From positions 1,036,925 to 1,100,924 of the forward strand of contig JACKFL010000005.1 in the NCBI GenBank assembly GCA_020632495.1: a stretch of 64,000 nt of DNA. The letters are read 5' to 3'. The notes under the pieces are model-generated. The model ran no database searches and was not told where the DNA came from. It saw nothing but the letters and a program-made list of their open reading frames with translations. Origin of the DNA: Candidatus Omnitrophota bacterium. Its GTDB lineage: Bacteria > Omnitrophota > Gorgyraeia > Zapsychrales > Zapsychraceae. Shown here one piece after another: positions 3,210 to 24,775 of the stretch. A program made the position numbers and the translations under genes. Positions within the stretch are counted from its first letter, which is position 1. The number at the start of each line of letters is the position of its first letter.

Positions 3210-3230
3210 ATTTGGTTTGTCACGACATAA

Positions 3231-4871
<1,641 letters not shown>

Positions 4872-4883
4872 GCAATACAATCG

Positions 4884-4918
4884 CAGGTCCCGGCCCGACG
4901 GCCGGGACCTGTTTTTTT
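4884..4918 (+). terminator. Rho-independent terminator after groEL
   Basis: Perfect 12-bp stem CAGGTCCCGGCC/GGCCGGGACCTG with a 4-nt loop, followed by T7. Confidence 0.85.
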
Positions 4919-4960
4919 AACCGCTCGGGAAACCCGGCCATCAATCGAAAGGAGGCAATC

Positions 4961-5596: not shown

Positions 5597-6626
5597 CGCG
5601 GTGATCATGACAGGGTTGTTGTTTTATGGCGGACCGTCCGCCGCAGCGGACTTGCAACCCGACGAGCTGGCGACCATCGCGGTCTTCGAGCGGATCTCAC
5701 CGTCGGTCGTTTCGATCAAGAACGCGTCTTTGCAGTGGGATTGGTTCTCGGCCAATATTTACGAGATTCCGCAGGGCGCCGGGTCCGGATTCATCTGGGA
5801 TGAAGAAGGCCATATCGTCACCAATTTTCACGTTATTTTCCGCGCCGACCGGATCCACGTGACCTTGTCCGATCAAAAGACCTATGACGCCAAGGTGGTC
5901 GGCATCGCCCCGAACCACGATCTGGCGGTCTTGCAAGTGGACGCGCCCAAGGAGTTGTTGAAGCCCATACCCGTGGGCAGCTCCCGCGATTTAAAGGTGG
6001 GGCAGCGCGCGCTTTCCATCGGAAACCCGTTCGGGCTGGACTATTCGCTCAGCACGGGGGTGGTCAGCGCGCTGGGGCGCACCATGCGCTCGATCGGCGG
6101 CCGGCAGATTTATGACGTCATTCAGACCGACGCGGCCATCAATCCCGGCAACTCCGGCGGGCCGTTGCTGGATTCGTCCGGAGACCTGATCGGGGTCGCC
6201 ACCATGATCTATAGCCCGTCCGGGGCATCGGCCGGAGTGGGGTTCGCGATACCCGTCAACACGGTTAAACGTGTAGTCCCGCAACTCATTGAGTACGGTA
6301 AAGTGAAACGCGCCGGTCTGGGCGTGGTCCTTGTGCCCGACGTGTACATGAAACGGCTGGGACTGACAGGCGCGATGATCCTCGAGGTGCAGCCCGGCGG
6401 CGCGGCCGCGCGCGCGGGACTGCGGCCCACCACCCGCAACCGTTACGGGGACGTGGCCTACGGCGATGTGATCGTTTCCGTCGACAACGAACCGGTCGGG
6501 TCCAATGAGGACCTGGTGGGATACGTTGAGAAGAACAAGGCCGTCGGTGACGAGGTGAATGTCCGTTTTATGCGCCAGAATAAAGAGTTCGGCACGACCG
6601 TGACCCTGCAGGAACTGGGCCGTTAG
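5565..6626 (+). CDS. htrA: HtrA/DegP-family S1C serine protease with one PDZ domain
   Basis: Catalytic motifs TNFHV, DLAVL and GNSGGPLLD, plus a C-terminal PDZ-like region. I prefer TTG 5565: AAGGAG lies 6 nt upstream, and it gives the signal peptide MLSPCRKRVLSAVIMTGLLFYGGPSAAA. Alternatives are GTG 5601 and ATG 5607. The track start at 5436 overlaps hsp20 too deeply. Confidence 0.85.
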   Translation: MLSPCRKRVLSAVIMTGLLFYGGPSAAADLQPDELATIAVFERISPSVVSIKNASLQWDWFSANIYEIPQGAGSGFIWDEEGHIVTNFHVIFRADRIHVTLSDQKTYDAKVVGIAPNHDLAVLQVDAPKELLKPIPVGSSRDLKVGQRALSIGNPFGLDYSLSTGVVSALGRTMRSIGGRQIYDVIQTDAAINPGNSGGPLLDSSGDLIGVATMIYSPSGASAGVGFAIPVNTVKRVVPQLIEYGKVKRAGLGVVLVPDVYMKRLGLTGAMILEVQPGGAAARAGLRPTTRNRYGDVAYGDVIVSVDNEPVGSNEDLVGYVEKNKAVGDEVNVRFMRQNKEFGTTVTLQELGR

Positions 6627-8522: not shown

Positions 8523-8566
8523 GCCCGTCTGTTGAGGGATTATTACCCGGCAGACGGGCTTTTTTT
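8523..8566 (+). terminator. Rho-independent terminator after htpG
   Basis: Stem GCCCGTCTG (8523-8531) pairs with CAGACGGGC (8551-8559), followed by T7. Confidence 0.75.
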
Positions 8567-8584: not shown

Positions 8585-8612
8585 TTGAATTATTTGCATT
8601 TCTATATATATT
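8585..8612 (+). promoter_or_regulatory. Candidate promoter in the AT-rich island upstream of the giant ORF (TTGAAT-16 nt-TATATT)
   Basis: Hexamers read by eye within an AT-rich stretch (about 22% GC by hand count over 8581-8640). No experimental support. Confidence 0.3.
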
Positions 8613-8721
8613 AGTTATACTACTGATAGTACTGCAGTTTCACACCATCCCCAATCCAACCAGATGAGTACACGGAACCCTTGATCGAGCGGGTTTTGCT
8701 GTATTCCCCTATTTAGCCAAG

Positions 8722-11700
8722 ATGTTTCAAGTATTTGCAAATAAAAGGTTTGCGCCTCTGCGGCGGTTTTGTTGTGCCGTCCTGGGGGCGGTCTTTGCCT
8801 GCGGATCGCTGACGCCGCCGGCCGCGGCCCAGACCGTGCCCGCGGTCATTCTGCCGCCGGTCGGAGCCATGGTCCAGACCACCGCCGCCTATCTGCCGGT
8901 CACCATGCTCGGCTTGACCGTCCGTCCCGAAGACCCGCTGCAACTGGATTTCATCATCGACGGCGGGCAGACCGGCCTGACCGGCGCGGGGTTAAAGTCC
9001 GAATCGGCCAAGCTGATCAATTATTTTCTGACCGCCCTGACCCTGCCCGAAGACCAGTTGTGGGTCAACCTTTCCCCCTATGAAAAAGACCGCATCATAC
9101 CCGACACCTTATCGCGCACCGAGATGGGCCGCGACATGCTCGCGCAGGATTATCTGCTCAAACAGCTGACCGCCTCCCTGATGTATCCGGAAGACGAACT
9201 CGGCCGCCGCTTTTGGGACCGCATCATTCAGGAAAGCTATCAGCGTTACGGCACCACCGACCTGCCGGCCAGCACCTTCAACAAGATCTGGATCATCCCC
9301 GAATACGCCCACGTCTACAAGCGTGACGGCAGTGTGTTCGTGGTCGACAGTCACCTGAGCGTCATGCTGGAAGAAGACTATCTGGCCGCGGCGGGCCATA
9401 GCGGGGAGGCTCCGGGCGATACCGATGTGCTGGACGAGGCCACCAAGGAACTCATCCGTGAGATCATGATCCCGGCCATCGAGCGCGAGATCAACACGGG
9501 CGAAAACTTCGCCCAGCTGCGCCAAATTTTCAATTCGATGATCCTGGCGGTATGGTACAAAAAGAATCTCAAAGAAAGCCTGCTCGGGCAGGTGTACGCC
9601 GACCGCCAACTGGTCAAGGGTGTCGACCACGTCGATCCGGGATTGAAGCAGGAGATTTATGGCCGGTATCTCGCCGCCTTCCGCAAAGGCGTGTTCGATT
9701 ACGTGAGAGAGGACCTTGATCCGGTCAGCCACGAACCCGTTCCGCGAAAGTATTTTTCGGGCGGTGTCGCCGCCATCGATCAGGCCCAGATCGCGGAGGT
9801 TGACGGTGCGCTGCCGGAAACCTTTGCCGCCAATCTTCACGACACGTTCACTGTTCGCGTGAATTTAACCACGATCGGGGGCGATCCGGATGCGGCGGTA
9901 CTCGCCGAAGAAAGGGGCTGGTCACAACCGCACATCAGCGCTTCGAGGGAACGGATTGAATCCTTACTGGCCTTTGAGGCCTCTCTGAACAGATTCTATC
10001 CGACCCCGTTGACCGGCGGCTGGCTGGAAGCGCAATCCGATGTGATTGTCACCCGGATTATGCGGTTGCTGGAAACACGCAAGCCCCGCGTGATCACCGC
10101 CGATACGCGGAAGTTTGTTGAGGCCCTGGTGATTCATCTGCTGGTCAATTCGATGGACGGGTATTTGCAACGGACGGACGGCCTCGCAGACCGGGCCGAC
10201 GAGTTCGAGTTCACGTTCGATTCACTGGTGGACGGCGAAACGCTGGTCTTGCGTTTTACGGATAACGGCACGGCGCCCGCTCAAGCTGAGGACACCGCGG
10301 CCAAACAACAGGCGATGCGGCAACAGCGTCCGCGTTTCGGGGGGCGGGGCCAGGCGCGTTCGTATCATTTGCCGTATTTGTTGCGGCAGTTGGGACGCCA
10401 GGTCCCCGTTTCGCTTCAGGAGCGCGCGGACGGACACCCGGGCACGGTCACGGAACTGCGGATTTCTCTCACCGACGCGGCCATCCTGATCGACGGCGGC
10501 GACATCCCGGCCTTCAAGGACAGCGAGGAAGTCCTGGCGGATATGCTTGCCGACGGCGACCTTCCGCTGAACGTCAAGCTCTGGCACGCCCTGGAGTTCC
10601 TGGACCGGGTCCGGCATTGGGTCTCCGAAGAGAACTTTGTGGATTCCGATACGCTGGATATCTACCGCCGCGCCTTGACGCTCGTCGAGCCCCCGCGCCA
10701 GTATGACGACCGGAATCTGCTGCGCGCCGAGGCCCAAGGCGGATTGCTGCATGATCTGTACCTGCGCCAGCTCGAGGTCCTGGCGGAGATGGCCGACAGT
10801 ACTCAGCGGTTGCTGCTAATGGAACCGGAGATCATGCTGGAAGATTTGGAGACGCGCATTCTCCGGGCGCATCCGCGTGTCGGGATGCTGACCGGCACGC
10901 AGTATGTCAGCGTCAAGACCAAGCTGATGAAGCTGTTGTCCGATCAAAACCGGGTCCAGCATATTTATGACCGTATCGCGACCAAATATCCCGTGCGCGA
11001 ATACGAACGCACCGCGCGTACCGTACAGCTGTGGGAGAAACTCGTTCCAGGCGACCGGGACCTTGTCGACTACCTGATCGTCCTGGATAAAGACACCATG
11101 CCTTCCGGTGTGGACGGCATGGCCCTGATTCCGGAGGCCCGGACCCTGGTCGTCAGCGAAGAGGCGTTTATGGACGCCGGCCGCCGCCGCGGCGAGATCG
11201 AGGTCGAGCATGTCCTTACGGAGAAACAGATTTTAGCGGTGACCGATGCCATCACCGCGCGGCGGAACATCAACTTCAGCCAGGCACGCGCCGGCCTTGA
11301 CGGACTGCGTGAGCGTATGGCGCCGATCTTTACCGAACTGTTCGGGGAGGGATCGCCGGTGCCGCGCTTCGCGTATCTGCGGCCGTCGCCCACGGCCCTG
11401 GTCGTCGAAATGGATAATGACTCCTTGCTCGCGTTGCGTGAGGCCTCGACAAAAGAGATCACCGAGAAGGTGGCCGCGGCGGACATCGACCGCGACATTG
11501 ATTTGGGGGAGGAAGAAGCCGCCCGATTCCGTCAGCTGCGCGAACTGATGCAGCGCTATCCGGAATACATCGCTATCAATTACCACGATGAACTGATCGC
11601 CTATCTGACCGGCGGTGTTCTGCGTACCACTAACGTGGACGGTCTGCTCGAATATTACCGCCGGAATTATCAGAATGCCTTATATACCCTGATCGACGCG

Positions 11701-14700
11701 ACGATCGCCGATCAGAATCTGCGCGACGCGCTGTTCCAGGAGGCGCGGACGGTCCTCAGTCCGCTCAATCCGCGGTGGAGCAAGATCGAAACGGCTATCC
11801 GCGGGAACAAGGCCTTGATCGACCGGCTGGTCGACAAGAAGGCCAGCCTGATTATCCGCAACGTGACCGGCGGGGAGGTGAATCTGGATGAATCGATGGA
11901 CGAGGTCCAGCGTATGCTGCTGGAACACCGGGCTTACCGCGAGGCCAGCCATGAGTTGAGGGCGGTCCTGCAGTTTATTCCGCCCGGCAAGATGCACCGC
12001 CTGTCCGCTCTGGAGGAACGCCTCGATGACGATATCCGCGTCCGCAAAAGTGCGCCGACACTCACCGAGAGTATCATCGGAAGCGGCAGCGGGACGCCGA
12101 CGCCCGGCATAGCGACGGTGCGCGGCTTCGCGCGGACCAAAAATGACTTGCCGCTGATTGTCCAGGGGATGGGACAGAGCGTCTGGGTTAGGGAGCACGA
12201 AGTCCAGCACGTGATCAACAGCGGATTTACCCTGTACACCTCGGCCGGTTTGAAGACCCCGGGAAGTTTCAATGCGCTGTGGCGGCGGGCGCTGCGGGGC
12301 AAGGCGGTCGCCGATGAAGCCCTGACGGTGACCGACGTCCTGCGGGAGTATCTGCCGGAAGGACGGGTACCCGAACGGACAAACGTGGGCCGGTTTCAGA
12401 TCGTGCACGCGCCGTGGCGGACTTCGCCGGACAAACCGGATAATTTCTTTGAACATGTCGTCATGCCCTTCGATGAAGGGCAGTTTTTCTTCGGTGCGCC
12501 CGCGCAGCCCGACACCGTTGACTGGCGATTCGACGAAGACACCGTCTTTTGGGAAGGACAAATCAACGGGACAGGATTGTCCTTCATCGAACAACGCTGG
12601 CCGTACGCGCTCAATCATTTTCTTATCGTACCGCAGCGCGGCGAACACCGGCCTCAGGTCCTGACCGAACAAGACGTGCGGCTGATGATGGACATCGCCC
12701 GGTCCGAACCGTTGCCGGGCTTCCGTTTGGCTTTCAACAGCCTGAAGGCCGGCGCCTCGATCAATCATCTTCATCTGCACGGCTTGACCGTTCCCGGCAA
12801 TACGTCCGCGTTGGAGCAGGCGGACCTGGTTGAATTGGCACGCCGGGACGGGGTGACCGTCAAGCGTATTGAAGGGGACATCGCCCGCGGGCTCTACTTT
12901 ACCGGCGCCGATCCCGCGGCGGCGGCCGCCACGGCTTACCAATATATTCAACGCCTGCAGGATCAGGATATCGCCCACACGGCCATCGCCACACCGGACG
13001 GTTTATTTGTGCTCCCTGTGCACGGAAATATCATCACCAGTTACGGGATGACCTGGTCTTTTTACGAATTGATGGGCTTTATTGTCAATTCGGACACCGG
13101 CCGGGACTTTTCATGGGTTCGGGAAGAACATATTCTGGCCGAGATGAAGGAAGTCGTGCTCAGCGAACAAGAATTCAACGACACTTACCGGGGCCTGTGG
13201 TCACGGGAGGCCGATAAGGCGGTCTTGACCGCGGGCCCGGTCTACGGTCAGCAGGTTGAGATCGTCGTGCGTCCCGACGGTATGCGTATCGACGGACGGA
13301 CTCTTTCGAATGGCTTGCCGGATATCCGGCATGATTTGAAGCACATCGCGTTTGCCGCGGTCACCGGACGCAGCAGTGTCCTCGATCATTTGACGTACGG
13401 CGCCTACAGTTCCCGGGCCTGGGATGATTTCACCTTCCGCGAGGGAATTCACGCCGGCAATCTGGAAGAGATTTTCGTGCGCGCGATGGAGATTTATCTG
13501 GCCGCCGGCACGCAGACGAATGCGCAGGAGCGGCTCGCCGCGATCACGGCCGATCTCGGAAGACCCGTAGATGAACTGCCTGCGGAATTTGCGGTCTCGC
13601 TGGAGAACGGCTCACTGTTCCGCCGCGTGCTGGATGCGTACGCGGGGCTCGACCGGCAATTGACGACAGAAGGGGAAGTCCGCGTGACTCACCGTTACGC
13701 GCCGCGTTTTCTCAAACCTGCCACCGGCGATGCCGCGATGACCGCCGCCGAACATGACGAGCAGCGCGCGAACGTGGCGCGCATCTATGCGGGCATGGCG
13801 GAGAACTTTAACGTCACCACCGGACAACCGATGTTCCGGGACAGCGAGCGGGTCGCGGCCATGGCCGGGATGTTTTCCACAGGACCCGACGGAGAACGGC
13901 GGGCGGTAGAGACCGACATTTATTCCGTGGCGTTGATGCAACTGCCGCAGGCCATGCGCGACTGGCTGCGGGATATCTTGGTGGCGGATTGGTTACAAAT
14001 CTTCACCGAAACCGATGAGGACATCGATCACTTTATTCCAGAACGCGACACCTATCATATCAGCGTGTCGGTGGTCCAGGATCTGGCCGCCCGACCGGAT
14101 GAGGCGGTCGGAGTCCTCGGCCGGCCGGATGAAGGTTTGACTGAAGACCAGCGCCAACGCATCACGGAAGATTTGCGCCGGATCATCGCGAGCCAGGATA
14201 AGGTCACGCTGACTCCGGTCGGCGCGCGGCTCGGTCCGGACGGGACCCTGATCTTCGTCTTTGAATACGATCCGGCCCTGTACGAGATTCGCGCCGAAGC
14301 GGTGGACGCGGTGCGTGCTCAAAACGCCGCCTTTACCGGACGGCCCAAACCCATGGTGCACGTGACGCTGTCCCGTACGCTCAATAATCCGACGGTAACC
14401 CCCCAGATGGCGGAAATGATCGCGCGTTTCCGTGACCGTTACACTTCGGTCACGAATGCCGACATGGGGCTGGAGGGACCGGTCACCGTGACGGAACTGG
14501 AGTTCAGTCACGAAAAGCGCTGGATGCACACCGAGATCGGCGCGTCCGAGGTGATACCGCTGGGCGGAAGCGATCAGGCCGAACTTGTGCAGTTTCATCC
14601 GTTTGATTTGCTCGGCCTTATCGATCTGGACGGAAAGCGGCTTAAGGCGGCTGTGGAGGCGCAGGAAGACGTCAATGCCTATGACGCGCCGCTTGATGAA

Positions 14701-17700: not shown

Positions 17701-20700
17701 ATCGCGAAACCGAAACTGGTGCTGGGTGCGGCACGCAACAAATTCGACGATGATATGGTCTTTCTGGCAGTACCCATTGTCGATCCGGCCATTCCGCCGT
17801 CGACATTCGAGGGCCTGTATGTGGGTATGCGCGACAACGAACGCGTGTATATTCCGATGCACGCCGCCGGCGACCGCGGCCCGCATGTGCTGGTAAGGCT
17901 GCCGCGTTTGATCAAGATGACAGAGCGGGATCTCCAGGGATTGGCCGGAATAATGGCGGCGCAGACATTCATCGGCCGCCGATTGGGCGCAGAGAAGATC
18001 GGTCCGGCACTCGCCGGGGCCGGCGTTTCACTCGGCGGTGACGAAGTCGAACTCGACACGGACCGCGCCGTGGATAACATTTTTGCCCTGGACAGCGACC
18101 AGACCGACAAGGCCTGGCTCCGGCAGGATTTACGCGAGGCGCTGATATCAGCGGGTTACGTGGAAGACGAGGCCATGATCGCAGACGGTTTGGACGAAAA
18201 GGACGACGAATTTACGGAACTGCTTCGATCGAACGGTTTCGGTCGCAAGGTCGCTGAATTGATTCAACAGGAAGTTCGAAAGTCGGTCCAGCGGTTGGAA
18301 GATGGGCAAACGACCTTTGGCCAGCGTTACCGGACGGTCAAAAACTTCTTAACGAAGATTCAACCGATGGCAGACGACGGAGACACCGAGGCACAGACGA
18401 CTTTTGTCTTCGGTTTCGTTCAGCGTATGGAAGTGGTGGCTCCGAAGAAGGGCCGCCGGGCCGCCGACGTGACGGAGCGCCTGGCCCATGAATTATGGCA
18501 TGTGTACCGAAATGACGACCGGCTGGCGGATGCGTTTTCTGAACTGCGCCTGTTGGAAGAGGATTTGGTGGAAGAAGATGAAGATGTCCGCGGATGGTTC
18601 AATGACCCGGACATCGGACTGGAAGACTATGTTCCCCTATTGGAACGTCATAATCAGGAATTGGACGAGGAGCCGACCGCGGATCCCGATGATCCGGAAC
18701 CGGATTGGTATTCCAGTTTTGCCGAGGACTTGGGGCAGCTCATCTTTATGTTGACGGGCGGCAACGCAGACAAATCTTACCGGATCTTGAACGCCATGGA
18801 CCGTGGACTTTCCCTGCCGCAGGCTGTCGGGGCCGTCCTCGGCGACGAACGGCAGAGCCGCGGCGATATGGCGGTACTGGTCGAACCGCCGTACCTGGTG
18901 GGGATCACCCAGCTGCAGATCGCGGACGTGACGCGCAGTATGGTCTTCGACACCTTCAGCGGCCGGCGTCTCGGTTACCTGCGTGTTCTCAGAGCCCTCA
19001 ATGACGCGCGCATCATCCTCAACCGGGGTAAGCGCATCGATCTGAAGCTGGACCTGGCCGTATCTAATCTGCATGAGCAATCCGGCGGTGACATCGAAGA
19101 GGCGTGGCTCCGTCGCGACCTCAATACGGCCCTGCACAGCATCGGCGTCACCATCGATCAGGCGGTGTTGTCCGAAGACGGCCGTTTCCCGCCGGTAACG
19201 CAGGATGACTTCGTCACTTATTTCAAAAAAGCGTCATGGTGGGGGCCGGTGATCGACCGGCTGGAACAGTTCCGCACGGACGGCTTGATCCACAGTTACG
19301 GATTTACCGGGAGTTTCTCGCGGGGGCAGTACCGCCTCGGATCAAGTAAGGACCTGGACATCGCCCTTGTTTTGCGGGGCGAACCTTTTTACGCGAACCG
19401 ACTCGGACCGGTGGTCGATTTTATCGAGGAAATTAATTCAGATCCCGGCATCCCGGTGCACATCACATTGACGGCCTTCGGACCGTCATACCGGTATTCG
19501 GTCCGCGCGGATACGCTGGAGTTTGACCTGGTGCGTCAGCCCGAGGTGGTTCAGTACTACCTGGATGCCGGACACTATCGCGGCGACCGGTTTGTGCGGA
19601 TTGACGGAAGTACAGCGGATCCGCAGAATCTGTGGCGGTTGCACGCCAAGCTCGTTGAACTGGGACCGATGCCGGAGGAGCAGCTGCGGGAATTTTTAAG
19701 CGGCGTTGATCAGGCCGTCCTGGCGGACGTGATGGATGCCGTCCGACGGAAGCTTCAACGGGACGCGGCCTTCGCCGGACGCGGAAATGAGCATCTGCCT
19801 GGTTATCTGCGGGAGTTTCAGGCCCGCCTGATCCGCGGCCGTACCGCCGCGGACCGTGAAATCATCGACCGGTTGCTCAACAATGAGGACATCCTGACGG
19901 TCACGGATCAAACGCCGCTCTACAACGGCGCTCCGTTAACAGTCGACAATCCGGTGGCATGGGGGAATGACACGCAGATCTTTATGCAGCCCACACGCAG
20001 TATTCATCTTTATCCGGGAGACTTGCGGTTGAAGGGAAGCGGCGGAGCGAATTTCATAAAACAATTTGCCGGAACGGTGTATCCTTATAACGTGCGCGAG
20101 TTCGGCGCGCGCGCCCGGGCCATCTATTTCGGCGCCAACGAACAGAATCTGCAAAAAGAAATGACCGCGGCGCTGTCATTCGCCTATTTAATGGAAACGC
20201 TGTGGCCGACAGAAGGCGCGCAGGCGACCAATATTCCGCTGGGCATCAAGCGCGTCAAGACAGTGACCATAGGCGCAGAGCCGTATCCCGTCGACGTTTA
20301 CTTCAGTAAATTGGCCCGCGAAGATGAGGAAGCGCGGACGGCGATGGAGGAATTACTTGTGCGGCAGTTGGGCAGCCGCCGGGCTGAATATCCGGAGGAT
20401 ACCGCCGCGGCCTTTGTCGCTTTTATGCGTCCGGCGCAAATGCTGGATATGCAGGGTTCGCCGTTGCGCGTCGGTTTAATCCGCAAACTGCTGCTCGAAG
20501 ATTACAGTGCCGAACATGACTTTGATGTGGAAGTCCGTGAACGCTGGCAGCAACGCGGGCAAGCGTTGACGGGATTATCCGCCGAGGAGATCGCGCGATT
20601 GGCCAAGCAACGGGTGGATGACATATTCGGCGAAATTATGCAGGATTACCAACCGCTCGCGGTGGACGCAACCGAACTGATCACGGAAACGGAAGGAGCG

Positions 20701-23700
20701 TCCCCGTTCGCGATCCTCTATCAGGCCACGGACGCCTACCGCCGCCGGACCCTGGTTTATAACGCGCGGGCCGCCGAGCGCTTTTACCGGGACGTGGTGT
20801 ATGATTTGGGACGCTACCTCGGCGCGCTGTGGACCGTGGGCGGCCGAACCGACGGCGGTCCGATCGAAGAACGCAATGTCGCTATCCGGGGTAACCGGGT
20901 AGTCCTGCACGATTGGGATGAGGGTTTTGTGCCGAACCGGGAGACCGTGGGGATCCGGATCGAGCCGTCGGCGATCCGCAATGATTTCGGCATGATGCAG
21001 ATCTCGACGCTGAAAACGATTCAGCAGCTGCTCGGTGTGCATGACCGGTTTGCCGACAGCGCCCAGCGCTATTTTATGGAAGGCGTCACGGCCGGCAGCC
21101 GGCGCGCTATGGAAGAAATCCTGATGAATCCCGGACAAGATGTGCTGAATGATATCGACCGGCAGATGTTGTTGAATGACTGGCGCCGGCTGACGCTGCC
21201 CCGGGAGACCACAACGGATGTCAGCGATGTGTTTGCGGCGGAGTTCCTGCGTTCTGTGCGGGAGCTGGCGCAACAGGGAGAACGTGTCACGGCCGATCAG
21301 GCCGTGCTGGCCGATCCCGCCGCAGACGCGCGCCTCATCAGTGAGATCGAACCGATTGAGCAGTTCGCCCGTTTTATCACAGATATCGAGGACTTGGACG
21401 CGTTTGTCGAGGCGCCTTTGCTGGAAGCGGCCCGCACATTGTTCAAGAAGGGCATCCGCACCTTCTGGACCTCGGCCAACCGCAAGGACATCGCCGAAGG
21501 ATCCCCGGCGGTCCTGATGTTCCTTTATGACGAATTGTCGCCGCGCAACAAGCTGGTGTCGCACAGCGTGGGGCAGGTGCTCGACAACATCAGCACCGTC
21601 GTGCGTATTCCGATGGACGAGACGACGACGGTGGCCGATATTCATCGTGAGGCCATGGCCATCGTCAACCGCTTTGAGGCGCAGCCGATGGACCGCAGCA
21701 TCGCCGAGATTATCCGGCCGGGACGGGACCAGGCTGTCACTGTGGAAGAACAGGACAAGCCGCCGGCGGATGTCCGGCGCCTGGCCGGTGTCGCGTTTAT
21801 CTTCGGCACCGGAAATAACGCAACGGTAATCGATGCCGACGGGAACGTCCGCCTTGAGAACGGAGCGCTCACCGAACTCGGACACAATATTCTTAAGAAA
21901 AGCCGGACCGGGGAATGGGTATTTACGGGGCGGGAAACTTTGGGTGCTAAACCCGATCGGGAATCCGGAGACGTGAGTTTCGAAGATTCCTTCAGTGGTC
22001 CCAACATCGCGCGCCGGTTCGCGCAGACAGACTGGGCGCCGGCGTTTATCAAAACACATGTTACCGCGCTGCCGGAGGGCTTCGCGACTCATACACAACT
22101 TGTTGACTTGGTTCGCAACGTGCCCGATGACGAAAATCTTCGCAAACTCCGGGCGGCGGGTATTGATGTTATTCTGCGGACGATTACAGCCGCGGTATCC
22201 GACGGTGACGCGCAGGCGATAAGCTTTGTCAATCGCTTGGGACGTGAGATCGGTGTGGCCTTGGCAGCTTGGTTGAAGCATTATGCCGCTGAAGATTGGA
22301 CGCAGAATATCGTTTTGGTCAGCGGAGTCGGCGAGCACTTTGCCCGTATTGAAGGAGAGACGGACGATACCAATGTCTTTATCGGAGGTATTCGAGCGGG
22401 CGTAACTTTGGGACTTGCGGAAGCCGGGAAAACGGAAGGTCTACGTTATCTCGACGAAGCGCGGATCCAGGGTATCGCCCGCGGCATACGGCGTTCCACG
22501 ATGGGATGGGAACGCGAGTTATTGGCGGCCCGTTTCACCGAACAAGAACGGTCACAACTGGACATAACCGATGCCGCCCCGCAAGACGCCCTGGCCGTGG
22601 GAATCAGTCTGGGTGGGACAAAGATCGGCGCCGGTCTGATCTCGATGGACGGGAATATACTCGCGCGGGATGAAATTCAATGGCGGCAGCGCTATCACGA
22701 ATCGTCCGCAGGTATTGTCGAAGGTATCGTTGACAGGATTGCGAATTTGCTAACGGCAGACGCCGTACGGAATTTGAGAAAAGTCGGCATCGCTTTTGCC
22801 GGACCCGTGGACCGGGACGCCGGCGTCGTGGGTACGCCGTTTAAAGCGCCCAATCTGCCGTTCGAAAATTATCCGCTGCGACAGGCCATTCGCGAAAGGC
22901 TCTTACAGAAGCTGCAGGACGAGTTTGGCAGCCAAGTTCAAGATCTCACAATCGACATTTACAATGACAATGTGGCGGCGGCTATCGGAGAGCAAAGCCG
23001 GTCAGGTCGATTGAATGCCGGAGCCCGTGATGAGGCCATGCAGGCCTCGGCCCCAAAACAGGCGCGCGTTTTTGACACAGCGGAGGCCGTCGCCTCGGTC
23101 TTTCCGTACGCGGATGTGATCAACCTGCCGGCACTGGCCGAGAGCGGCGTGGTCCTGACCGGTCACGTCAACCGCGTGCCGGCGCAGACATCGCTCGAGA
23201 ACTATGTCTTGAAGGCGCGCCACCAAATGAAGATTTATGAGGGCGGCACGTATCGCGGGGCCGTGCCGTTGTGGGAATACAGTAAACCCGGGCAACTGGT
23301 GAATATCCCGCTGGAAAAGTTCACCGACGCCCGCTGGGTGTTACCGTTGCACGCGCAGTACCGTCCCAAACTGACGGAAAACCAGGGCCTGGTCCGCACG
23401 CTGTTGTGGCTGTATCTGGTGTCCCGTCCTGAATTGCAGGGTGAGAAGGTCGTCGCCATCGGCGCGGCCGAGCCGTTCCGCCGCACGCTGGATGAGATGC
23501 GCGCGGTCTTCGGTGATTACCGGACCTTCACTGAAGATGATTTCGGTTTCCGGCTCAGCCAGCCGGCCTATGAATTTACCGTACCGGTCCTGACCGCCGA
23601 ACAACGCTCTGCGGTGGAATCCTACCTCGAGAAATTCATGCCGATTACCGACGTTGCGTCGGACGGAGACGCAGCCGTCCTCGGCACCGATAAAAAAGGG

Positions 23701-23976
23701 GGGATCGACTTCAATCCGGTAAATATGAATCTGTCGGAGCAGGGAGACGATATCCCGCTGAATGTATCGCCAATCCTCTCGTCACCGCTCGGACCGATTG
23801 AAGGCATCCGGCCGGTGATTATTCAGATCGTTCCCGTCACCAATCTGCCGCTGCTGCTCGGTCTGACCGACAAACCTTCCGAAGATGCTCCTGTTTCCGG
23901 CGCGGATCTTCTCGCCCGTGATCCTGCCGACCGGCGTGCGTTGACGATCGCCGCCCTGGACGTCATCGTCCGTTAA
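8722..23976 (+). CDS. Giant (5,084 aa) signal-peptide-bearing multi-module protein: GHKL-like x2, HIT/GDP-hexose-phosphorylase-like, 2H phosphoesterase, kinase-like, HExxH x2, Pol-beta nucleotidyltransferase, split ROK/ASKHA
   Basis: Uninterrupted 15,255-nt ORF. N-terminal MFQVFANKRFAPLRRFCCAVLGAVFACGSLTPPAAAQ. Motif-level matches are listed in the findings. No Shine-Dalgarno is visible before ATG 8722. Confidence 0.9.
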   Translation: MFQVFANKRFAPLRRFCCAVLGAVFACGSLTPPAAAQTVPAVILPPVGAMVQTTAAYLPVTMLGLTVRPEDPLQLDFIIDGGQTGLTGAGLKSESAKLINYFLTALTLPEDQLWVNLSPYEKDRIIPDTLSRTEMGRDMLAQDYLLKQLTASLMYPEDELGRRFWDRIIQESYQRYGTTDLPASTFNKIWIIPEYAHVYKRDGSVFVVDSHLSVMLEEDYLAAAGHSGEAPGDTDVLDEATKELIREIMIPAIEREINTGENFAQLRQIFNSMILAVWYKKNLKESLLGQVYADRQLVKGVDHVDPGLKQEIYGRYLAAFRKGVFDYVREDLDPVSHEPVPRKYFSGGVAAIDQAQIAEVDGALPETFAANLHDTFTVRVNLTTIGGDPDAAVLAEERGWSQPHISASRERIESLLAFEASLNRFYPTPLTGGWLEAQSDVIVTRIMRLLETRKPRVITADTRKFVEALVIHLLVNSMDGYLQRTDGLADRADEFEFTFDSLVDGETLVLRFTDNGTAPAQAEDTAAKQQAMRQQRPRFGGRGQARSYHLPYLLRQLGRQVPVSLQERADGHPGTVTELRISLTDAAILIDGGDIPAFKDSEEVLADMLADGDLPLNVKLWHALEFLDRVRHWVSEENFVDSDTLDIYRRALTLVEPPRQYDDRNLLRAEAQGGLLHDLYLRQLEVLAEMADSTQRLLLMEPEIMLEDLETRILRAHPRVGMLTGTQYVSVKTKLMKLLSDQNRVQHIYDRIATKYPVREYERTARTVQLWEKLVPGDRDLVDYLIVLDKDTMPSGVDGMALIPEARTLVVSEEAFMDAGRRRGEIEVEHVLTEKQILAVTDAITARRNINFSQARAGLDGLRERMAPIFTELFGEGSPVPRFAYLRPSPTALVVEMDNDSLLALREASTKEITEKVAAADIDRDIDLGEEEAARFRQLRELMQRYPEYIAINYHDELIAYLTGGVLRTTNVDGLLEYYRRNYQNALYTLIDATIADQNLRDALFQEARTVLSPLNPRWSKIETAIRGNKALIDRLVDKKASLIIRNVTGGEVNLDESMDEVQRMLLEHRAYREASHELRAVLQFIPPGKMHRLSALEERLDDDIRVRKSAPTLTESIIGSGSGTPTPGIATVRGFARTKNDLPLIVQGMGQSVWVREHEVQHVINSGFTLYTSAGLKTPGSFNALWRRALRGKAVADEALTVTDVLREYLPEGRVPERTNVGRFQIVHAPWRTSPDKPDNFFEHVVMPFDEGQFFFGAPAQPDTVDWRFDEDTVFWEGQINGTGLSFIEQRWPYALNHFLIVPQRGEHRPQVLTEQDVRLMMDIARSEPLPGFRLAFNSLKAGASINHLHLHGLTVPGNTSALEQADLVELARRDGVTVKRIEGDIARGLYFTGADPAAAAATAYQYIQRLQDQDIAHTAIATPDGLFVLPVHGNIITSYGMTWSFYELMGFIVNSDTGRDFSWVREEHILAEMKEVVLSEQEFNDTYRGLWSREADKAVLTAGPVYGQQVEIVVRPDGMRIDGRTLSNGLPDIRHDLKHIAFAAVTGRSSVLDHLTYGAYSSRAWDDFTFREGIHAGNLEEIFVRAMEIYLAAGTQTNAQERLAAITADLGRPVDELPAEFAVSLENGSLFRRVLDAYAGLDRQLTTEGEVRVTHRYAPRFLKPATGDAAMTAAEHDEQRANVARIYAGMAENFNVTTGQPMFRDSERVAAMAGMFSTGPDGERRAVETDIYSVALMQLPQAMRDWLRDILVADWLQIFTETDEDIDHFIPERDTYHISVSVVQDLAARPDEAVGVLGRPDEGLTEDQRQRITEDLRRIIASQDKVTLTPVGARLGPDGTLIFVFEYDPALYEIRAEAVDAVRAQNAAFTGRPKPMVHVTLSRTLNNPTVTPQMAEMIARFRDRYTSVTNADMGLEGPVTVTELEFSHEKRWMHTEIGASEVIPLGGSDQAELVQFHPFDLLGLIDLDGKRLKAAVEAQEDVNAYDAPLDEELARLGFTREMIIEEIVSKLEQRRTLDRWAATDALEHILREVLENAVDAYMQRADFDDEFMFGFDVRSHPRGTVIRFLDNGTPLFVSETSEEKRVQKKVFHNRYGGKHAGMAIIRHQVTTNIDKRAEVKLIDLSSRFPGAERKLEFFTMLEILLPDDGAVLAEAPVKSGPGQLTLMFPVLRRLKIKEFDKGSQTRVFSTEAWDYVLKVLPAEPNGVFVIDNYERFRPYLGGLVPAYQIVRLLDTFGMYLEEAVVMEKISGPNLLEDIRAAYEAGDMTTVDRVLSEFTSLLQEIYDRGLLMPDVKLVNFKKHDGHYRLLDAGIVLDPAQFRDGRGDIETVGEFFMQRHLENLRVLGAVGGYELISRYRDAMAAIGLADGEGFLKKVGEMPEEMTPAPMPDISAGIVRSLHALADVPAEVTETADAEDSAVLSETGRAGLADETPLEELGLSRHSERVLRDRGLTTLGIIKQQHRSGALNDIPGMKSPLSKVRIEIDGLMLDLISGTEWSLPAVAEDIAAEAADEMVRDEIEADPALTRGEKDQALLTWQSAVDMLRHYRNRAVLSLPPKFTKPGQRGIVMLGHLHGLPYESQEWLDGLRYLDEARNGTDPQKWQRHVTRWENYLNQALDVEYAGLLQVIEQDYERVKTILTEMTDIRLAGVEYSAKEFRDLMPEAEQMAVLLPQLLRRLNFQSPEKRARQLMLFTYGPLVYAKVTGQAFMRDVELVPIDNHFLKTSVMGDVRKIDAALERARFSLSPDAKRSYQADAQAIIDRRYRKLRLDRDRHFALQVLKHTRKGQAMLVSLGNLHIDGVDAILKGRRVLPRAVIDMKEWEEKASELFVFPDRAAADRAVFGAIPALGGNDALDLDAFVLAVSDTYQDHLRGAWNGSLRFYVPLSETRRDIDDFLVTDPRDGRQWVYLAAQTGSEAGKSEAYLLRVKEATPTKIRFDEIMLQRATGFIPVQTLIDQGLALPGSAEVIIKQAERYMRNMRPVMLALLSQGIAKPKLVLGAARNKFDDDMVFLAVPIVDPAIPPSTFEGLYVGMRDNERVYIPMHAAGDRGPHVLVRLPRLIKMTERDLQGLAGIMAAQTFIGRRLGAEKIGPALAGAGVSLGGDEVELDTDRAVDNIFALDSDQTDKAWLRQDLREALISAGYVEDEAMIADGLDEKDDEFTELLRSNGFGRKVAELIQQEVRKSVQRLEDGQTTFGQRYRTVKNFLTKIQPMADDGDTEAQTTFVFGFVQRMEVVAPKKGRRAADVTERLAHELWHVYRNDDRLADAFSELRLLEEDLVEEDEDVRGWFNDPDIGLEDYVPLLERHNQELDEEPTADPDDPEPDWYSSFAEDLGQLIFMLTGGNADKSYRILNAMDRGLSLPQAVGAVLGDERQSRGDMAVLVEPPYLVGITQLQIADVTRSMVFDTFSGRRLGYLRVLRALNDARIILNRGKRIDLKLDLAVSNLHEQSGGDIEEAWLRRDLNTALHSIGVTIDQAVLSEDGRFPPVTQDDFVTYFKKASWWGPVIDRLEQFRTDGLIHSYGFTGSFSRGQYRLGSSKDLDIALVLRGEPFYANRLGPVVDFIEEINSDPGIPVHITLTAFGPSYRYSVRADTLEFDLVRQPEVVQYYLDAGHYRGDRFVRIDGSTADPQNLWRLHAKLVELGPMPEEQLREFLSGVDQAVLADVMDAVRRKLQRDAAFAGRGNEHLPGYLREFQARLIRGRTAADREIIDRLLNNEDILTVTDQTPLYNGAPLTVDNPVAWGNDTQIFMQPTRSIHLYPGDLRLKGSGGANFIKQFAGTVYPYNVREFGARARAIYFGANEQNLQKEMTAALSFAYLMETLWPTEGAQATNIPLGIKRVKTVTIGAEPYPVDVYFSKLAREDEEARTAMEELLVRQLGSRRAEYPEDTAAAFVAFMRPAQMLDMQGSPLRVGLIRKLLLEDYSAEHDFDVEVRERWQQRGQALTGLSAEEIARLAKQRVDDIFGEIMQDYQPLAVDATELITETEGASPFAILYQATDAYRRRTLVYNARAAERFYRDVVYDLGRYLGALWTVGGRTDGGPIEERNVAIRGNRVVLHDWDEGFVPNRETVGIRIEPSAIRNDFGMMQISTLKTIQQLLGVHDRFADSAQRYFMEGVTAGSRRAMEEILMNPGQDVLNDIDRQMLLNDWRRLTLPRETTTDVSDVFAAEFLRSVRELAQQGERVTADQAVLADPAADARLISEIEPIEQFARFITDIEDLDAFVEAPLLEAARTLFKKGIRTFWTSANRKDIAEGSPAVLMFLYDELSPRNKLVSHSVGQVLDNISTVVRIPMDETTTVADIHREAMAIVNRFEAQPMDRSIAEIIRPGRDQAVTVEEQDKPPADVRRLAGVAFIFGTGNNATVIDADGNVRLENGALTELGHNILKKSRTGEWVFTGRETLGAKPDRESGDVSFEDSFSGPNIARRFAQTDWAPAFIKTHVTALPEGFATHTQLVDLVRNVPDDENLRKLRAAGIDVILRTITAAVSDGDAQAISFVNRLGREIGVALAAWLKHYAAEDWTQNIVLVSGVGEHFARIEGETDDTNVFIGGIRAGVTLGLAEAGKTEGLRYLDEARIQGIARGIRRSTMGWERELLAARFTEQERSQLDITDAAPQDALAVGISLGGTKIGAGLISMDGNILARDEIQWRQRYHESSAGIVEGIVDRIANLLTADAVRNLRKVGIAFAGPVDRDAGVVGTPFKAPNLPFENYPLRQAIRERLLQKLQDEFGSQVQDLTIDIYNDNVAAAIGEQSRSGRLNAGARDEAMQASAPKQARVFDTAEAVASVFPYADVINLPALAESGVVLTGHVNRVPAQTSLENYVLKARHQMKIYEGGTYRGAVPLWEYSKPGQLVNIPLEKFTDARWVLPLHAQYRPKLTENQGLVRTLLWLYLVSRPELQGEKVVAIGAAEPFRRTLDEMRAVFGDYRTFTEDDFGFRLSQPAYEFTVPVLTAEQRSAVESYLEKFMPITDVASDGDAAVLGTDKKGGIDFNPVNMNLSEQGDDIPLNVSPILSSPLGPIEGIRPVIIQIVPVTNLPLLLGLTDKPSEDAPVSGADLLARDPADRRALTIAALDVIVR

Positions 23977-24714: not shown

Positions 24715-24775
24715 TCCCGGTTGCGGCATCAGGCGGTGCTTGTCTAACTCCAAGGAAGTGTGTACAATAGCTGTC

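What the first reader, a model, noticed from the sequence alone, without database searches (positions are those of the whole stretch)
8722..23976. 15.3 kb ORF encoding a signal-peptide-bearing chain of unrelated nucleotide- and phosphate-handling enzyme modules
**Seen in sequence.** A single uninterrupted 15,255-nt ORF (5,084 aa) begins with a signal-peptide-like segment, MFQVFANKRFAPLRRFCCAVLGAVFACGSLTPPAAAQ. Motif-level matches place many different folds in one chain:
- Two paralogous GHKL/HATPase-like modules, around aa 476 and aa 2038.
- A HIT-fold GDP-hexose-phosphorylase-like module (ALNHFLIVP ... AFNSLKAGASINHLHLHGL, aa ~1300-1355).
- A 2H phosphoesterase (YHISVS at aa 1779, VHVTLS at aa 1880).
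- A protein-kinase-like module (YVLKV, MPDVKLVN, LLDAG; aa 2200-2312).
- Two HExxH motifs (aa 1159 and aa 3256).
- A Pol-beta minimal nucleotidyltransferase (aa ~3526-3550).
- A ROK/ASKHA kinase whose halves are in swapped order (aa ~4350-4760).

I see no NRPS/PKS C-A-T logic, RTX nonapeptides or Ig/cadherin-type adhesin repeats. Those are the usual explanations for bacterial giant genes.

**Inference.** This looks like an exported multi-effector or polyprotein. Its chemistry centres on nucleotides, RNA ends and sugar phosphates, a toolkit typical of inter-organism conflict or RNA-repair systems. I do not know a described system with this composition.
Basis: partly seen in the sequence, partly recalled or inferred. 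Interest (0 to 1): 0.92.

Follow-up and report, generated by a model that had tools for sequence, protein, structure and literature searches.

The report
Cysteine-free exported multi-enzyme chain, Omnitrophota
This is a real, intact 15.3 kb gene from an uncultivated Omnitrophota bacterium; its product looks exported, has no cysteine once the signal peptide is removed, and strings a dozen or more different enzyme modules between a head domain and a tail shared by thousands of proteins of that phylum, a family whose architecture I did not find described.

Summary
The 5,084-aa ORF at 8722-23976 is real. NCBI holds the identical protein (MCB9720013.1, named "ROK family protein", on a 2.0 Mb contig). 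A 93%-identical syntenic ortholog exists, and every module is under purifying selection (dN/dS 0.06-0.31).

- Supported: two paralogous GHKL modules, a HIT module, a 2H module, a protein-kinase-like module, a Pol-beta nucleotidyltransferase, and a circularly permuted ROK kinase.
- Unsupported: the two HExxH motifs.

Searches added the context. The protein belongs to a very large family, named almost only from Omnitrophota MAGs (7,902 clusters at 50% identity), built as:
- a Sec-type signal peptide ending A-x-A|Q;
- a conserved head domain of about 350 aa with no PDB or viral fold match;
- variable cargo of 0.2 to 4.6 kaa;
- a tail of 60-100 aa (GGIDxN...PVIINIxP...LLGL).

Cargo modules are separated by a short D-x-A-[M/V]-L peptide, 10-30 times commoner than chance. 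The two indels against the ortholog are whole modules bounded by that peptide. The mature chain has no cysteine.

It is a mid-sized relative of the multi-enzyme very long proteins of Omnitrophota described in two preprints. I did not find the head/junction/tail architecture in the papers I searched. Export is well supported. Processing at the junctions and the site of action remain inference.

The parts
8585..8621 (+). Promoter-like AT-rich region upstream of the giant gene (TTGAAT-16-TATATT and TTTGCA-17-TATACT). It follows a hairpin plus T-run after htpG at about 8527-8566.
   Evidence: (2 promoter-like sites against 0.3 expected) and the sequence. The terminator was read by eye. These are consensus matches only.
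8722..23976 (+). The whole ORF, 5,084 codons plus stop.
8722..8829 (+). Sec-type signal peptide (aa 1-36), probable cleavage AAA|Q. It holds all three Cys of the protein (aa 17, 18, 27). A lipobox-like VFAC at aa 24-27 is an alternative cleavage site.
   Evidence: The AF2 model has a helix at aa 8-30.
8830..9888 (+). Family-defining N-terminal head domain (aa 37-389). The conserved core ends at RKYFSGG (aa 342-348) and is followed by two short strands. Conserved motifs include the invariant WVNLSP, plus DYLLKQ (D, Y, L, K invariant) and NTFNKIWI (W invariant).
   Evidence: 7,902 clusters. AF2 pLDDT 80.8, pTM 0.79. No PDB or BFVD analogue. No Pfam or NCBIfam hit.
9889..9903 (+). First D-x-A-V-L junction (DAAVL, aa 390-394). 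Further junction-type sites are at aa 585, 1498, 1670, 2150, 2419, 2841, 3149, 3382, 3479, 3663, 4192, 4336, 4770 and 4983.
9904..10473 (+). GHKL-like module 1 (aa 395-584), with the strings LVNSMDG and FTDNGT.
   Evidence: Paralogous to module 2. It has no Pfam hit of its own.
10489..12381 (+). Unassigned region (aa 590-1220), probably two or three modules. It contains HEVQH at aa 1159.
   Evidence: No significant Pfam or PDB hit. dN/dS 0.07-0.08.
12382..13212 (+). HIT-fold module (aa 1221-1497), with HFLIVP at aa 1299 and NHLHLHGL at aa 1348. It resembles GDP-hexose phosphorylases.
   Evidence: It is 43% identical to the same module in P0122, which carries precomputed PF26216/PF26217.
13213..13734 (+). 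Dispensable module M3a (aa 1498-1671). It is absent from the 93%-identical ortholog and bounded by DKAVL and DAAMT. It is present in P0121.
13735..14601 (+). 2H phosphoesterase-like module (aa 1672-1960), with YHISVS at aa 1778 and VHVTLS at aa 1879.
   Evidence: Pfam 2_5_RNA_ligase2 E 0.013. It is 55% identical to P0121. The motifs are conserved.
14602..15168 (+). GHKL-like module 2 (aa 1961-2149), with LENAVDA at aa 2036 and FLDNGT at aa 2070.
   Evidence: HATPase_c E 0.007. Paralogy with module 1.
15169..15975 (+). Protein-kinase-like module (aa 2150-2418), with YVLKV at aa 2197, MPDVKLVN at aa 2293 and LLDAG at aa 2310.
15976..17886 (+). Unassigned modules M5 and M6 (aa 2419-3055). M5 recurs in family member P0252.
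17887..18180 (+). Repeat unit R1 (aa 3056-3153), a paralog of R2.
   Evidence: 36% identity, E 1e-16.
18181..18864 (+). Dispensable module M7 (aa 3154-3381). It is absent from the ortholog, bounded by DEAMI and DMAVL, and contains HELWH at aa 3256.
18865..19170 (+). Repeat unit R2 (aa 3382-3483).
19171..19707 (+). Pol-beta-type nucleotidyltransferase-like module (aa 3484-3662), with GSFSRG at aa 3530 and DLDIAL at aa 3544.
   Evidence: Pfam NTP_transf_2 E 0.038. The motifs are conserved in the ortholog.
19708..21726 (+). Unassigned modules M10 and M11a (aa 3663-4335). M11a recurs in P0245.
21727..22566 (+). C-terminal half of a ROK/ASKHA kinase, placed first (aa 4336-4615), with FGTGNN and TELGH.
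   Evidence: It is 54% identical to P0121.
22567..23037 (+). N-terminal half of the ROK/ASKHA kinase, placed second (aa 4616-4772), with SLGGTK and NDNVAAAIGE. It ends at DEAMQ.
23038..23667 (+). Unassigned last cargo module (aa 4773-4982).
   Evidence: No Pfam hit. dN/dS 0.14.
23668..23973 (+). Last junction (DAAVL) plus the family C-terminal tail (aa 4983-5084): GGIDFNP...PVIIQIVPVTNLPLLLGL, then an acidic extension.
   Evidence: It is the most hydrophobic 19-residue stretch in the protein, just above the signal peptide.

Best explanation
**What it is (shown).**
- The gene encodes one 5,084-aa 'beads on a string' protein of an uncultivated Omnitrophota bacterium.
- It is among the longest members found of a very large family, named almost only from Omnitrophota MAGs, with a fixed frame. 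The frame is a Sec-type signal peptide, a conserved head domain of about 350 aa with no PDB or viral fold match, variable cargo, and a tail of 60-100 aa.
- Here the cargo is at least 12 modules. Seven are recognisable: two GHKL modules, HIT, 2H, a protein-kinase-like module, a Pol-beta nucleotidyltransferase and a circularly permuted ROK kinase. Their motif strings are identical in the ortholog; I read these as the catalytic motifs from general knowledge of the folds.
- Modules are delimited by a short D-x-A-[M/V]-[L] peptide. Modules are gained, lost and reshuffled as in-frame cassettes at those peptides.

**How it most likely works (inferred).**
- The presequence takes the unfolded chain through Sec and is cut off.
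- The mature chain, which avoids cysteine, then works outside the cytoplasm: in the periplasm, on the cell surface or at the contact with a host cell.
- The head and tail serve as common handling parts (anchoring, sorting or assembly).
- The cargo supplies sugar-phosphate and nucleotide chemistry.
- The junction peptide is a recognition element. Most plausibly it is a processing or docking site, so the chain may be cut into separate enzymes after export.
For: **Real, constrained gene.**

**Family and frame.**
- 819 homologs of the head domain, nearly all named Omnitrophota/Omnitrophica.
- 7,902 clusters at 50% identity, 6,119 of them at E<=1e-30. In the 150 best hits the head domain starts within the first 83 residues. 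Lengths run from 420 to 5,312 aa.
- The tail is present in full-length short members and in 76 of 133 representatives.
- The consensus of 50 cargo regions reads DxAM ... DxAxL, then 13 aa, then GGIDLN.

**Export.**
- A signal-peptide-like presequence in 116 of 121 representatives, and small-x-small-Q in 95 of 121.
- No Cys in the 5,047 mature residues, against 0.59% Cys in 17 neighbouring proteins of the window.
- Mature parts of family members hold 0.045-0.06% Cys, while 63 of 121 presequences contain Cys.
- No internal hydrophobic helix.

**Junction peptide.**
- D-x-A-V-L: 9 seen, 0.27 expected.
- D-x-A-M family-wide: 172 against 11, and 261 against 28.
- It brackets single Pfam domains in P0269 and P0247.
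- Both indels against the ortholog run from junction to junction.
- The codons vary, so selection acts on the peptide.

**Module shuffling.** The same modules sit at other positions or in another order in P0121, P0122, P0349, P0313, P0249, P0252 and P0245.

**Module identities.**
Against: - Nothing here shows localisation, cleavage or activity.
- The kinase-like, ROK, nucleotidyltransferase and GHKL modules need ATP or NTP, which the periplasm and the outside normally lack.
- The roles of head and tail are guesses. The head domain has no structural analogue.
- I could not inspect model coordinates to see whether the tail docks on the head.
- No protease or dedicated secretion system is linked to family genes in the contexts I looked at.
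- Several module assignments rest on sub-threshold matches plus motifs.
- The first ASKHA phosphate motif reads SLGGT rather than DxGGT. The ROK module therefore may not be a standard kinase.
Confidence: 0.6

Rival explanations
1. It is a secreted polyprotein. After export, a protease cuts at each D-x-A|[M/V] site. This releases the head, the tail and a dozen separate enzymes. The invariant Ser118 and Lys147 of the head domain could even form a Ser/Lys-dyad peptidase acting in cis.
For: - The junction peptide is strongly enriched and lies at every module border. This includes the head-cargo and cargo-tail borders of single-cargo members.
- Ala at the presumed P1 position would fit Ser/Lys-dyad peptidases (general knowledge of signal peptidase I and LexA).
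- An HtrA-type protease gene lies upstream in both orthologous loci.
- In the AF2 model the first junction falls where confidence drops after the head domain.
Against: - There is no cleavage evidence.
- No recognisable protease fold or family was found in the head domain.
- htrA belongs to a chaperone cluster, is followed by a terminator-like hairpin, and is not linked to another family member examined.
- The motif could equally be a docking or linker element.
Confidence: 0.3
2. It is a multi-effector delivered into a host or prey cell, where ATP and nucleotides are available. The head domain would act as the translocation or trafficking module, as in polymorphic toxins.
For: - A constant N-terminal domain with highly variable cargo.
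- Catalytic motifs of NTP-using enzymes retained behind a signal peptide.
- Omnitrophota are proposed to be host-dependent or predatory (PMC10066038; bioRxiv 10.1101/2023.11.21.568195).
- The best, but non-significant, fold hits of the head domain were ClyA-type pore-forming toxins (TM about 0.1).
Against: - No toxin-type domains and no immunity gene were seen. No T3SS, T4SS or T6SS genes were seen nearby.
- Family cargo is mostly housekeeping-like sugar-phosphate enzymes and regulatory domains.
- The fold hits are at noise level.
Confidence: 0.2
3. It is not exported. The N-terminal hydrophobic helix is an uncleaved membrane anchor, and the chain is a membrane-tethered cytoplasmic multi-enzyme scaffold.
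For: - The cargo is of cytoplasmic type and needs ATP or NTP.
- Nielsen & Lui consider inner-membrane-anchored cytoplasmic architectures for many long Omnitrophota proteins.
Against: - The h-region is short (about 15 residues), has a positive n-region and is followed by a conserved A-x-A|Q. That orientation puts the chain outside.
- Cys is common in the presequence but nearly absent after it, across 220,000 residues.
Confidence: 0.12
4. It is an assembly or annotation artefact: several genes fused by frameshift errors, or internal starts at the junction Met/Val giving separate proteins.
For: Metagenome-derived sequence. The junction Met could be a vestigial start codon. There is a mild GCG bias in the Ala codon before it.
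Against: - The identical ORF lies on a 2.0 Mb contig and in a separate NCBI record on another contig. The ortholog ORF was seen on 23 or more contigs.
- Indels against the ortholog are in frame.
- dN/dS is low throughout.
- In this gene the junction residue is Val, encoded by GTA, GTC, GTT or GTG. No Shine-Dalgarno-like signal precedes the junctions.
Confidence: 0.03

Closest known systems
Multi-enzyme 'metabolic cluster' very long proteins of Omnitrophota (Nielsen & Lui 2026, bioRxiv 10.64898/2026.06.07.730766; Archaeovorin domain lists in West-Roberts et al. 2023, bioRxiv 10.1101/2023.11.21.568195)
   Same: - Same phylum.
- Many unrelated enzyme domains tile one polypeptide.
- The domain pool overlaps: ROK, HATPase_c, HIT, NUDIX, PGM, GT5, response regulator, methyltransferase.
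- It falls in their signal-peptide-only topology class.
   Different: - This protein is 5.1 kaa, below their 10 kaa cut-off.
- It has no TM helices, HEAT repeats, C39 peptidase or dockerin.
- The shared head domain, the D-x-A-M/V junction, the C-terminal tail and the Cys avoidance are not mentioned in the passages I read or searched.
Polymorphic toxin or effector proteins (constant N-terminal trafficking domain plus variable C-terminal domains)
   Same: A constant N-terminal domain is fused to highly variable, shuffled cargo. There are several paralogs per genome.
   Different: - The cargo is not toxin-like.
- There is also a constant C-terminal tail.
- No immunity genes or dedicated secretion loci were seen.
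Type IX secretion cargo (signal peptide + cargo + conserved C-terminal sorting domain of about 80 aa)
   Same: Sec signal, arbitrary cargo and a conserved C-terminal domain of 60-100 aa shared by many proteins of one phylum.
   Different: - The tail gave no Pfam or NCBIfam match.
- T9SS is a Bacteroidota/FCB system (general knowledge).
- This family also has a large conserved N-terminal domain.
ROK family sugar kinases (the NCBI name of this protein)
   Same: Both halves of a ROK/ASKHA domain are present, with the GTG, GE[L]GH and ND..AA..GE motifs.
   Different: - The halves are circularly permuted.
- No cysteine is left for a ROK-type zinc site (the zinc-Cys motif is my own knowledge of the family).
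- The first phosphate motif reads SLGGT rather than DxGGT.
- The module makes up about 9% of the protein, so the name misdescribes the whole.

Membership tests
Omnitrophota N-head/C-tail cargo family (defined here) | N-terminal domain of about 350 aa with WVNLSP, DYxLKQ and RKYFSGG motifs, directly after a signal peptide | tested here: met
   45-60% identity to hundreds of members. In the 150 best hits the domain starts within the first 83 residues.
Omnitrophota N-head/C-tail cargo family (defined here) | C-terminal tail GGIDxN...PVIINIxP...LLGL | tested here: met
   the tail profile finds 128 proteins (best E 1e-23). The window tail aligns over its whole core.
Omnitrophota N-head/C-tail cargo family (defined here) | D-x-A-[M/V] junction peptides at module borders | tested here: met
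Omnitrophota N-head/C-tail cargo family (defined here) | Near absence of Cys after the signal peptide | tested here: met
   0 Cys in 5,047 residues here; 0.045-0.06% in the family.
Omnitrophota multi-enzyme very long proteins (Nielsen & Lui 2026) | Encoded by Omnitrophota | tested here: met
   The ortholog locus is from MAG 'Candidatus Omnitrophota bacterium HKST-UBA13'. NCBI names the source of the identical protein Candidatus Omnitrophica/Omnitrophota bacterium.
Omnitrophota multi-enzyme very long proteins (Nielsen & Lui 2026) | Length of at least 10,000 aa (their catalogue threshold) | tested here: not met
   5,084 aa.
Omnitrophota multi-enzyme very long proteins (Nielsen & Lui 2026) | Many distinct enzyme families tile the chain with none dominating | tested here: met
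   Six different superfamilies in seven modules. There are no tandem repeats.
Archaeovorins / Dockerin-type giant proteins (West-Roberts 2023) | HEAT repeats, glycosyltransferases, many TM helices, C39/S8 peptidase near the N-terminus, or dockerin domains | tested here: not met
   None found by Pfam. No internal hydrophobic helices.
NRPS/PKS megasynthases | Condensation, adenylation and carrier (or KS, AT, ACP) domains | tested here: not met
   No such Pfam hit down to E 5 on module-sized pieces.
RTX / type I secreted adhesins | Nonapeptide or Ig-like tandem repeats and an ABC/MFP/TolC exporter | tested here: not met
   No repeats. The downstream TolC/HlyD pair goes with an AcrB-type RND pump, not an ABC exporter.
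Polymorphic toxin systems | C-terminal toxin domain with an adjacent immunity gene and a dedicated secretion pathway | tested here: not met
   The neighbours are chaperones, an F420-type oxidoreductase and an RND pump. The only PADLOC match is to a kinase-domain model.
ROK family | Contiguous ROK/ASKHA domain with a zinc-binding Cys motif | tested here: not met
   The halves are in swapped order. There is no Cys in the mature chain.
Processed polyprotein | Cleavage at the recurrent junction sites by a cognate protease | not testable with these tools
   The recurrent site is shown. Cleavage and protease are not.

The most novel reading that the evidence does not exclude
The signal peptide, head domain, D-x-A-M/V junctions and tail together define a phylum-wide export-and-handling system. 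Through it, ultra-small host-dependent Omnitrophota would place cytoplasm-type enzymes outside their own cytoplasm. These include sugar-phosphate, nucleotide and kinase modules, singly or as chains of up to about 5 kaa that may be cut at the junctions. The enzymes would act in an extracytoplasmic metabolic space or at or inside the host. This would be a new protein-sorting and processing logic, with a new head-domain fold and a new recognition peptide.
Probability: 0.3. Interest if true: 0.85.

Novelty: new variant of a known kind. Interest (0 to 1): 0.6.

Why it matters
- Very long multi-enzyme proteins are a hallmark of Omnitrophota, but how they are built and handled is unknown.
- This gene links them to a continuum of thousands of smaller proteins that share one head, one tail, one junction peptide and a near-total ban on cysteine.
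- That yields concrete, testable handles:
  - a candidate sorting or anchoring domain of unknown fold;
  - a candidate processing or docking peptide that marks module borders and evolutionary cassette breakpoints;
  - a sharp paradox, namely ATP-dependent enzymes behind a cleavable signal peptide.
- Resolving these would show where this phylum carries out part of its metabolism and how it deals with hosts.
- It would also improve annotation. The present public name, "ROK family protein", describes about 9% of the chain.

Tried and rejected
- **Homolog search with nearly the whole protein.** The first attempt exceeded the length limit and the second timed out. I used pieces instead.
- **Homolog search with aa 1200-2420.** The word index returned only two proteins. 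They proved informative all the same.
- **PDB sequence searches with long multi-module queries.** These gave nothing useful. Only module-sized queries gave consistent weak hits.
- **Foldseek of the head-domain model.** Against PDB and BFVD it gave noise-level matches only. I do not read the ClyA-type hits as evidence.
- **Docking of the tail onto the head.** I modelled a short full-length member, P0113. Tail residues reach pLDDT 73-88, but coordinates and PAE are not available to me, so the idea stays open.
- **Junction as a DNA-level recombination site or internal start with ribosome-binding site.** Rejected. Codons vary, Val is not restricted to GTG, and there is no purine-rich signal upstream.
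- **Functional link to the upstream chaperone and HtrA cluster.** The synteny is conserved in the ortholog. However, the giant gene has its own promoter-like region after a terminator-like hairpin, and another family member has an unrelated neighbourhood.
- **PF26216 and PF26217.** These were precomputed for homolog P0122 but are not in the Pfam copy at hand, and no paper mentions them. My recollection that they are GDPGP1-like domains is unverified.


Full report
**1. The observation.**

The ORF listing gives a single ORF at 8722..23976 on the + strand, ATG start, 5,084 aa. The gene has no tandem DNA repeats and no internal BLAST-level protein repeats at 1e-3.

The ORF is not an assembly accident:
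- The identical protein is in NCBI as MCB9720013.1, "MAG: ROK family protein [Candidatus Omnitrophica bacterium]", on a 2,008,960-bp contig.
- A 100%-identical fragment of 4,794 aa, cut at its N-terminus, is a separate NCBI record on a different contig.
- A GTDB species representative, MAG "Candidatus Omnitrophota bacterium HKST-UBA13", carries a syntenic ortholog of 4,692 aa at 93% amino-acid identity. That form was seen on at least 23 contigs.

Nei-Gojobori dN/dS between the two orthologs is 0.135 overall and 0.06-0.31 for each of 19 segments. The whole length is therefore under purifying selection.

**2. Surroundings.**
- Upstream on the same strand lie groEL (3252-4871), an Hsp20 gene, an HtrA-type protease with a PDZ domain (5436-6626) and htpG (6663-8513).
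- After htpG there is a hairpin followed by a T-run (about 8527-8566, read by eye). An AT-rich stretch with two promoter-like sites follows. The giant gene therefore probably has its own promoter.
- Downstream, 19 nt after the stop, come an F420-type oxidoreductase-like gene and a TolC/HlyD/AcrB-type RND pump. No terminator-like site was detected between them.
- The rest of the window is ordinary chromosomal content: a pyridine-nucleotide disulphide oxidoreductase, an amylase-family protein, MBOAT, MMPL, a porin and a permuted ATP-grasp protein. There are two tRNA genes.
- No other copy of the head or tail domain lies in the window.

**3. Module assignments.**

On the whole protein, Pfam and NCBIfam report only the N-terminal half of a ROK domain and a weak HATPase_c.

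- **HIT.** Ap4A_phos_N, DcpS_C and HIT match around aa 1295-1360 (E 0.02-0.24). HINT2 is the best PDB sequence hit (E 0.019). A five-sequence profile returns 12 HIT-family proteins among 16 hits. The His-x-His-x-His/Gln signature is kept across homologs of 26-44% identity. Homolog P0122 carries precomputed PF26216/PF26217, which my Pfam copy lacks.
- **2H.** 2_5_RNA_ligase2 matches at E 0.013. Both H-x-S/T motifs are conserved.
- **GHKL.** The two modules are paralogs (E 4e-11). The second matches HATPase_c at E 0.007.
- **Kinase-like.** The PADLOC model PD-T4-6 matches aa 2233-2316 at E 1.7e-5; from memory this is a kinase-domain protein. PKC-eta, S6K1 and KSR2 lead the real PDB hits. The positions I read as the beta3 Lys, catalytic Asp, Asn and DFG-like Asp are invariant in a 28%-identical homolog.
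- **Nucleotidyltransferase.** NTP_transf_2 matches at E 0.038, and the GS...DLD motif is present.
- **ROK.**
  - Profile positions 131-245 match aa 4362-4537, upstream of profile positions 2-96 at aa 4626-4727.
  - When I joined the halves in the natural order, Pfam aligned them as one stretch over profile 2-245 (E 4.5e-13). That confirms a circular permutation.
  - No Cys remains for a ROK-type zinc site, and the first phosphate motif reads SLGGT.
- **HExxH.** The two strings exist (2 seen, 0.12 expected) but have no profile support. One lies in a module that the ortholog lacks.
- **Unassigned.** About half of the chain remains unassigned: aa 590-1220, 2419-3055, 3154-3381, 3663-4335 and 4773-4982.

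**4. The family frame.**

- **Head domain.**
  - A search with the first 420 aa returned 819 proteins at about 50% identity. Nearly all those with a name are from Omnitrophota/Omnitrophica MAGs.
  - A full HMMER scan of 1.84 billion representatives found 7,902 clusters, 6,119 of them at E<=1e-30. In the 150 best hits the domain starts within the first 83 residues. Lengths run from 420 to 5,312 aa, and six others are 4.5-5.3 kaa.
  - The domain (aa 37 to about 389) is highly conserved, with 33 invariant columns.
  - It has no Pfam or NCBIfam model.
  - It gives a confident AlphaFold model (pLDDT 80.8, pTM 0.79). That model has no analogue in the PDB or BFVD.
- **Tail.** Full-length short members end in a shared tail, GGIDxN...PVIINIxP...LLGL. 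A tail profile finds 128 more proteins, and 76 of 133 representatives carry it.
- **Cargo elsewhere in the family.** It includes PGI, PGK, NUDIX, ankyrin, PGM/PMM, UDPGP, GT5 starch synthase, GH77, FBPase, protein kinase, ABC1, HAD, M28, receiver, PfkB, GNAT, methyltransferase, ARMT1 and Glu/Leu dehydrogenase.
- **Copy number.** Metagenome loci show up to three family genes within 21 kb.

**5. The junction peptide.**
- In the window protein, D-x-A-V-L occurs 9 times against 0.27 expected from shuffles. With the looser form D-x-A-[MVI] there are 15 plausible junctions.
- Across the family the same site reads D-x-A-M. It is the most over-represented 4-mer in 92,890 cargo residues (172 seen, 11 expected). 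In 133 representatives it occurs 261 times against 28 expected.
- It lies within about 40 residues after the head domain in most members with a D-x-A-M site. In a minority it lies 10-30 residues before the tail.
- It brackets single Pfam domains in other 5-kaa members. For example, a receiver domain at aa 3703-3818 of P0269 sits between junctions at 3693 and 3824.
- Codons at the junctions vary, and no ribosome-binding signal precedes them. Selection therefore acts on the peptide.
- Both differences in length between the window protein and its ortholog are whole modules running from one junction to the next: aa 1498-1671 and aa 3154-3381.
- Homologous modules occur at different positions or in a different order in P0121, P0122, P0349, P0313, P0249, P0252 and P0245.
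- A unit of about 100 aa is duplicated on either side of one dispensable module.

**6. Export.**
- The presequence has a basic n-region, a short h-region and AAA|Q.
- Of 121 representatives with complete N-termini, 116 have such a presequence and 95 have small-x-small-Q after it.
- All three Cys of the protein lie in the presequence. The mature 5,047 residues have none, and the same holds for the ortholog.
- Neighbouring proteins have 0.59% Cys. Mature parts of family members have 0.045-0.06%. Yet 63 of 121 presequences contain Cys.
- This contrast is hard to explain unless the presequence is removed and the rest lives outside the cytoplasm.
- There is no internal hydrophobic helix. The only other hydrophobic stretch is the proline-containing core of the tail.

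**7. Mechanism and rivals.**

The best-supported reading is a Sec-exported, cysteine-free carrier chain. Head and tail would be common handling parts, and the cargo modules would be delimited by a recognition peptide.

Three points are inferred and not shown:
- whether the peptide is a cleavage site (polyprotein) or a docking or linker element;
- whether the enzymes act in the periplasm, on the surface or in a host;
- where they would obtain ATP.

A tethered-cytoplasmic reading conflicts with the Cys pattern and the conserved cleavage-type site. Artefact and internal-start readings are essentially excluded.

**8. Comparison with what is known.**
- Seymour et al. 2023 (PMC10066038) note giant, poorly annotated ORFs in Omnitrophota.
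- West-Roberts et al. 2023 describe Archaeovorins and Dockerin-type giants, and list glycolytic and NUDIX/HATPase_c domains in them.
- Nielsen & Lui 2026 define a "multi-enzyme metabolic cluster" class among proteins of 10 kaa or more, with ROK, HATPase_c, HIT and PGM content and mostly signal-peptide or TM topologies.
- The window protein works like a smaller, signal-peptide-only member of that class but is below their size cut-off. It lacks the Archaeovorin hallmarks.
- In the passages I read or searched in those papers I found no mention of the shared head domain, the tail, the junction peptide or the cysteine avoidance. That is absence in what I could search, not proof of novelty.

**9. 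Verdict.**

The finding is genuine, and most of its details hold. It is not an isolated oddity. It is one of the longest members found of a very large uncharacterised family named almost only from Omnitrophota MAGs. I rate it a new variant of a known kind, with moderate to high interest. The interest lies mainly in the family frame and in the export paradox it exposes.

Noticed in passing
window 8527-8566: A hairpin (CCCGTCTG...CAGACGGG) followed by a run of seven T lies just after the htpG stop. It looks like an intrinsic terminator. The scan tool missed it, probably because the loop is long.
   Followed up: partly
window 12789-13734 (aa about 1357-1671): This is the only stretch where nucleotide BLAST against the ortholog locus breaks down. 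Synonymous divergence in the HIT module is 0.94, against 0.1-0.4 elsewhere. That suggests allelic replacement by recombination next to the dispensable module.
   Followed up: partly
window 24740-27145: The TolC-like outer-membrane factor is unusually long (801 aa). The best OEP stretch reported (of two) lies in the C-terminal part (aa 584-758). The N-terminal portion gave no other Pfam hit.
   Followed up: no
window 56640-58106: A circularly permuted ATP-grasp protein (CP_ATPgrasp_1/2, E 1e-144 to 1e-165) is unrelated to the finding. The ORFs around it were not examined.
   Followed up: no
proteins P0127, P0144, P0166, P0181, P0195: Small proteins of 80-172 aa consist of little more than the family C-terminal tail and are encoded on long contigs (37-86 kb). 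They are either stand-alone tail proteins or the ends of frameshifted or miscalled family genes.
   Followed up: no
family junctions in loci L003-L082: The Ala codon before the junction Met is GCG in 52% of 174 sites, against 27% for Ala codons overall in the same genes. This is a mild nucleotide-level bias that I cannot explain.
   Followed up: partly
one search hit names: A few head-domain hits are labelled Heimdallarchaeota, Pacearchaeota or Auribacterota. A few tail hits are labelled Deltaproteobacteria, Lysobacterales or Bathyarchaeia. All are on contigs of about 1-7 kb, so they are probably mis-binned Omnitrophota fragments.
   Followed up: no
window 4961-5596 and 5436-6626: The mechanically listed Hsp20 and HtrA ORFs overlap by 160 nt in different frames. 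One of the two listed ORFs is probably longer than the true gene.
   Followed up: no
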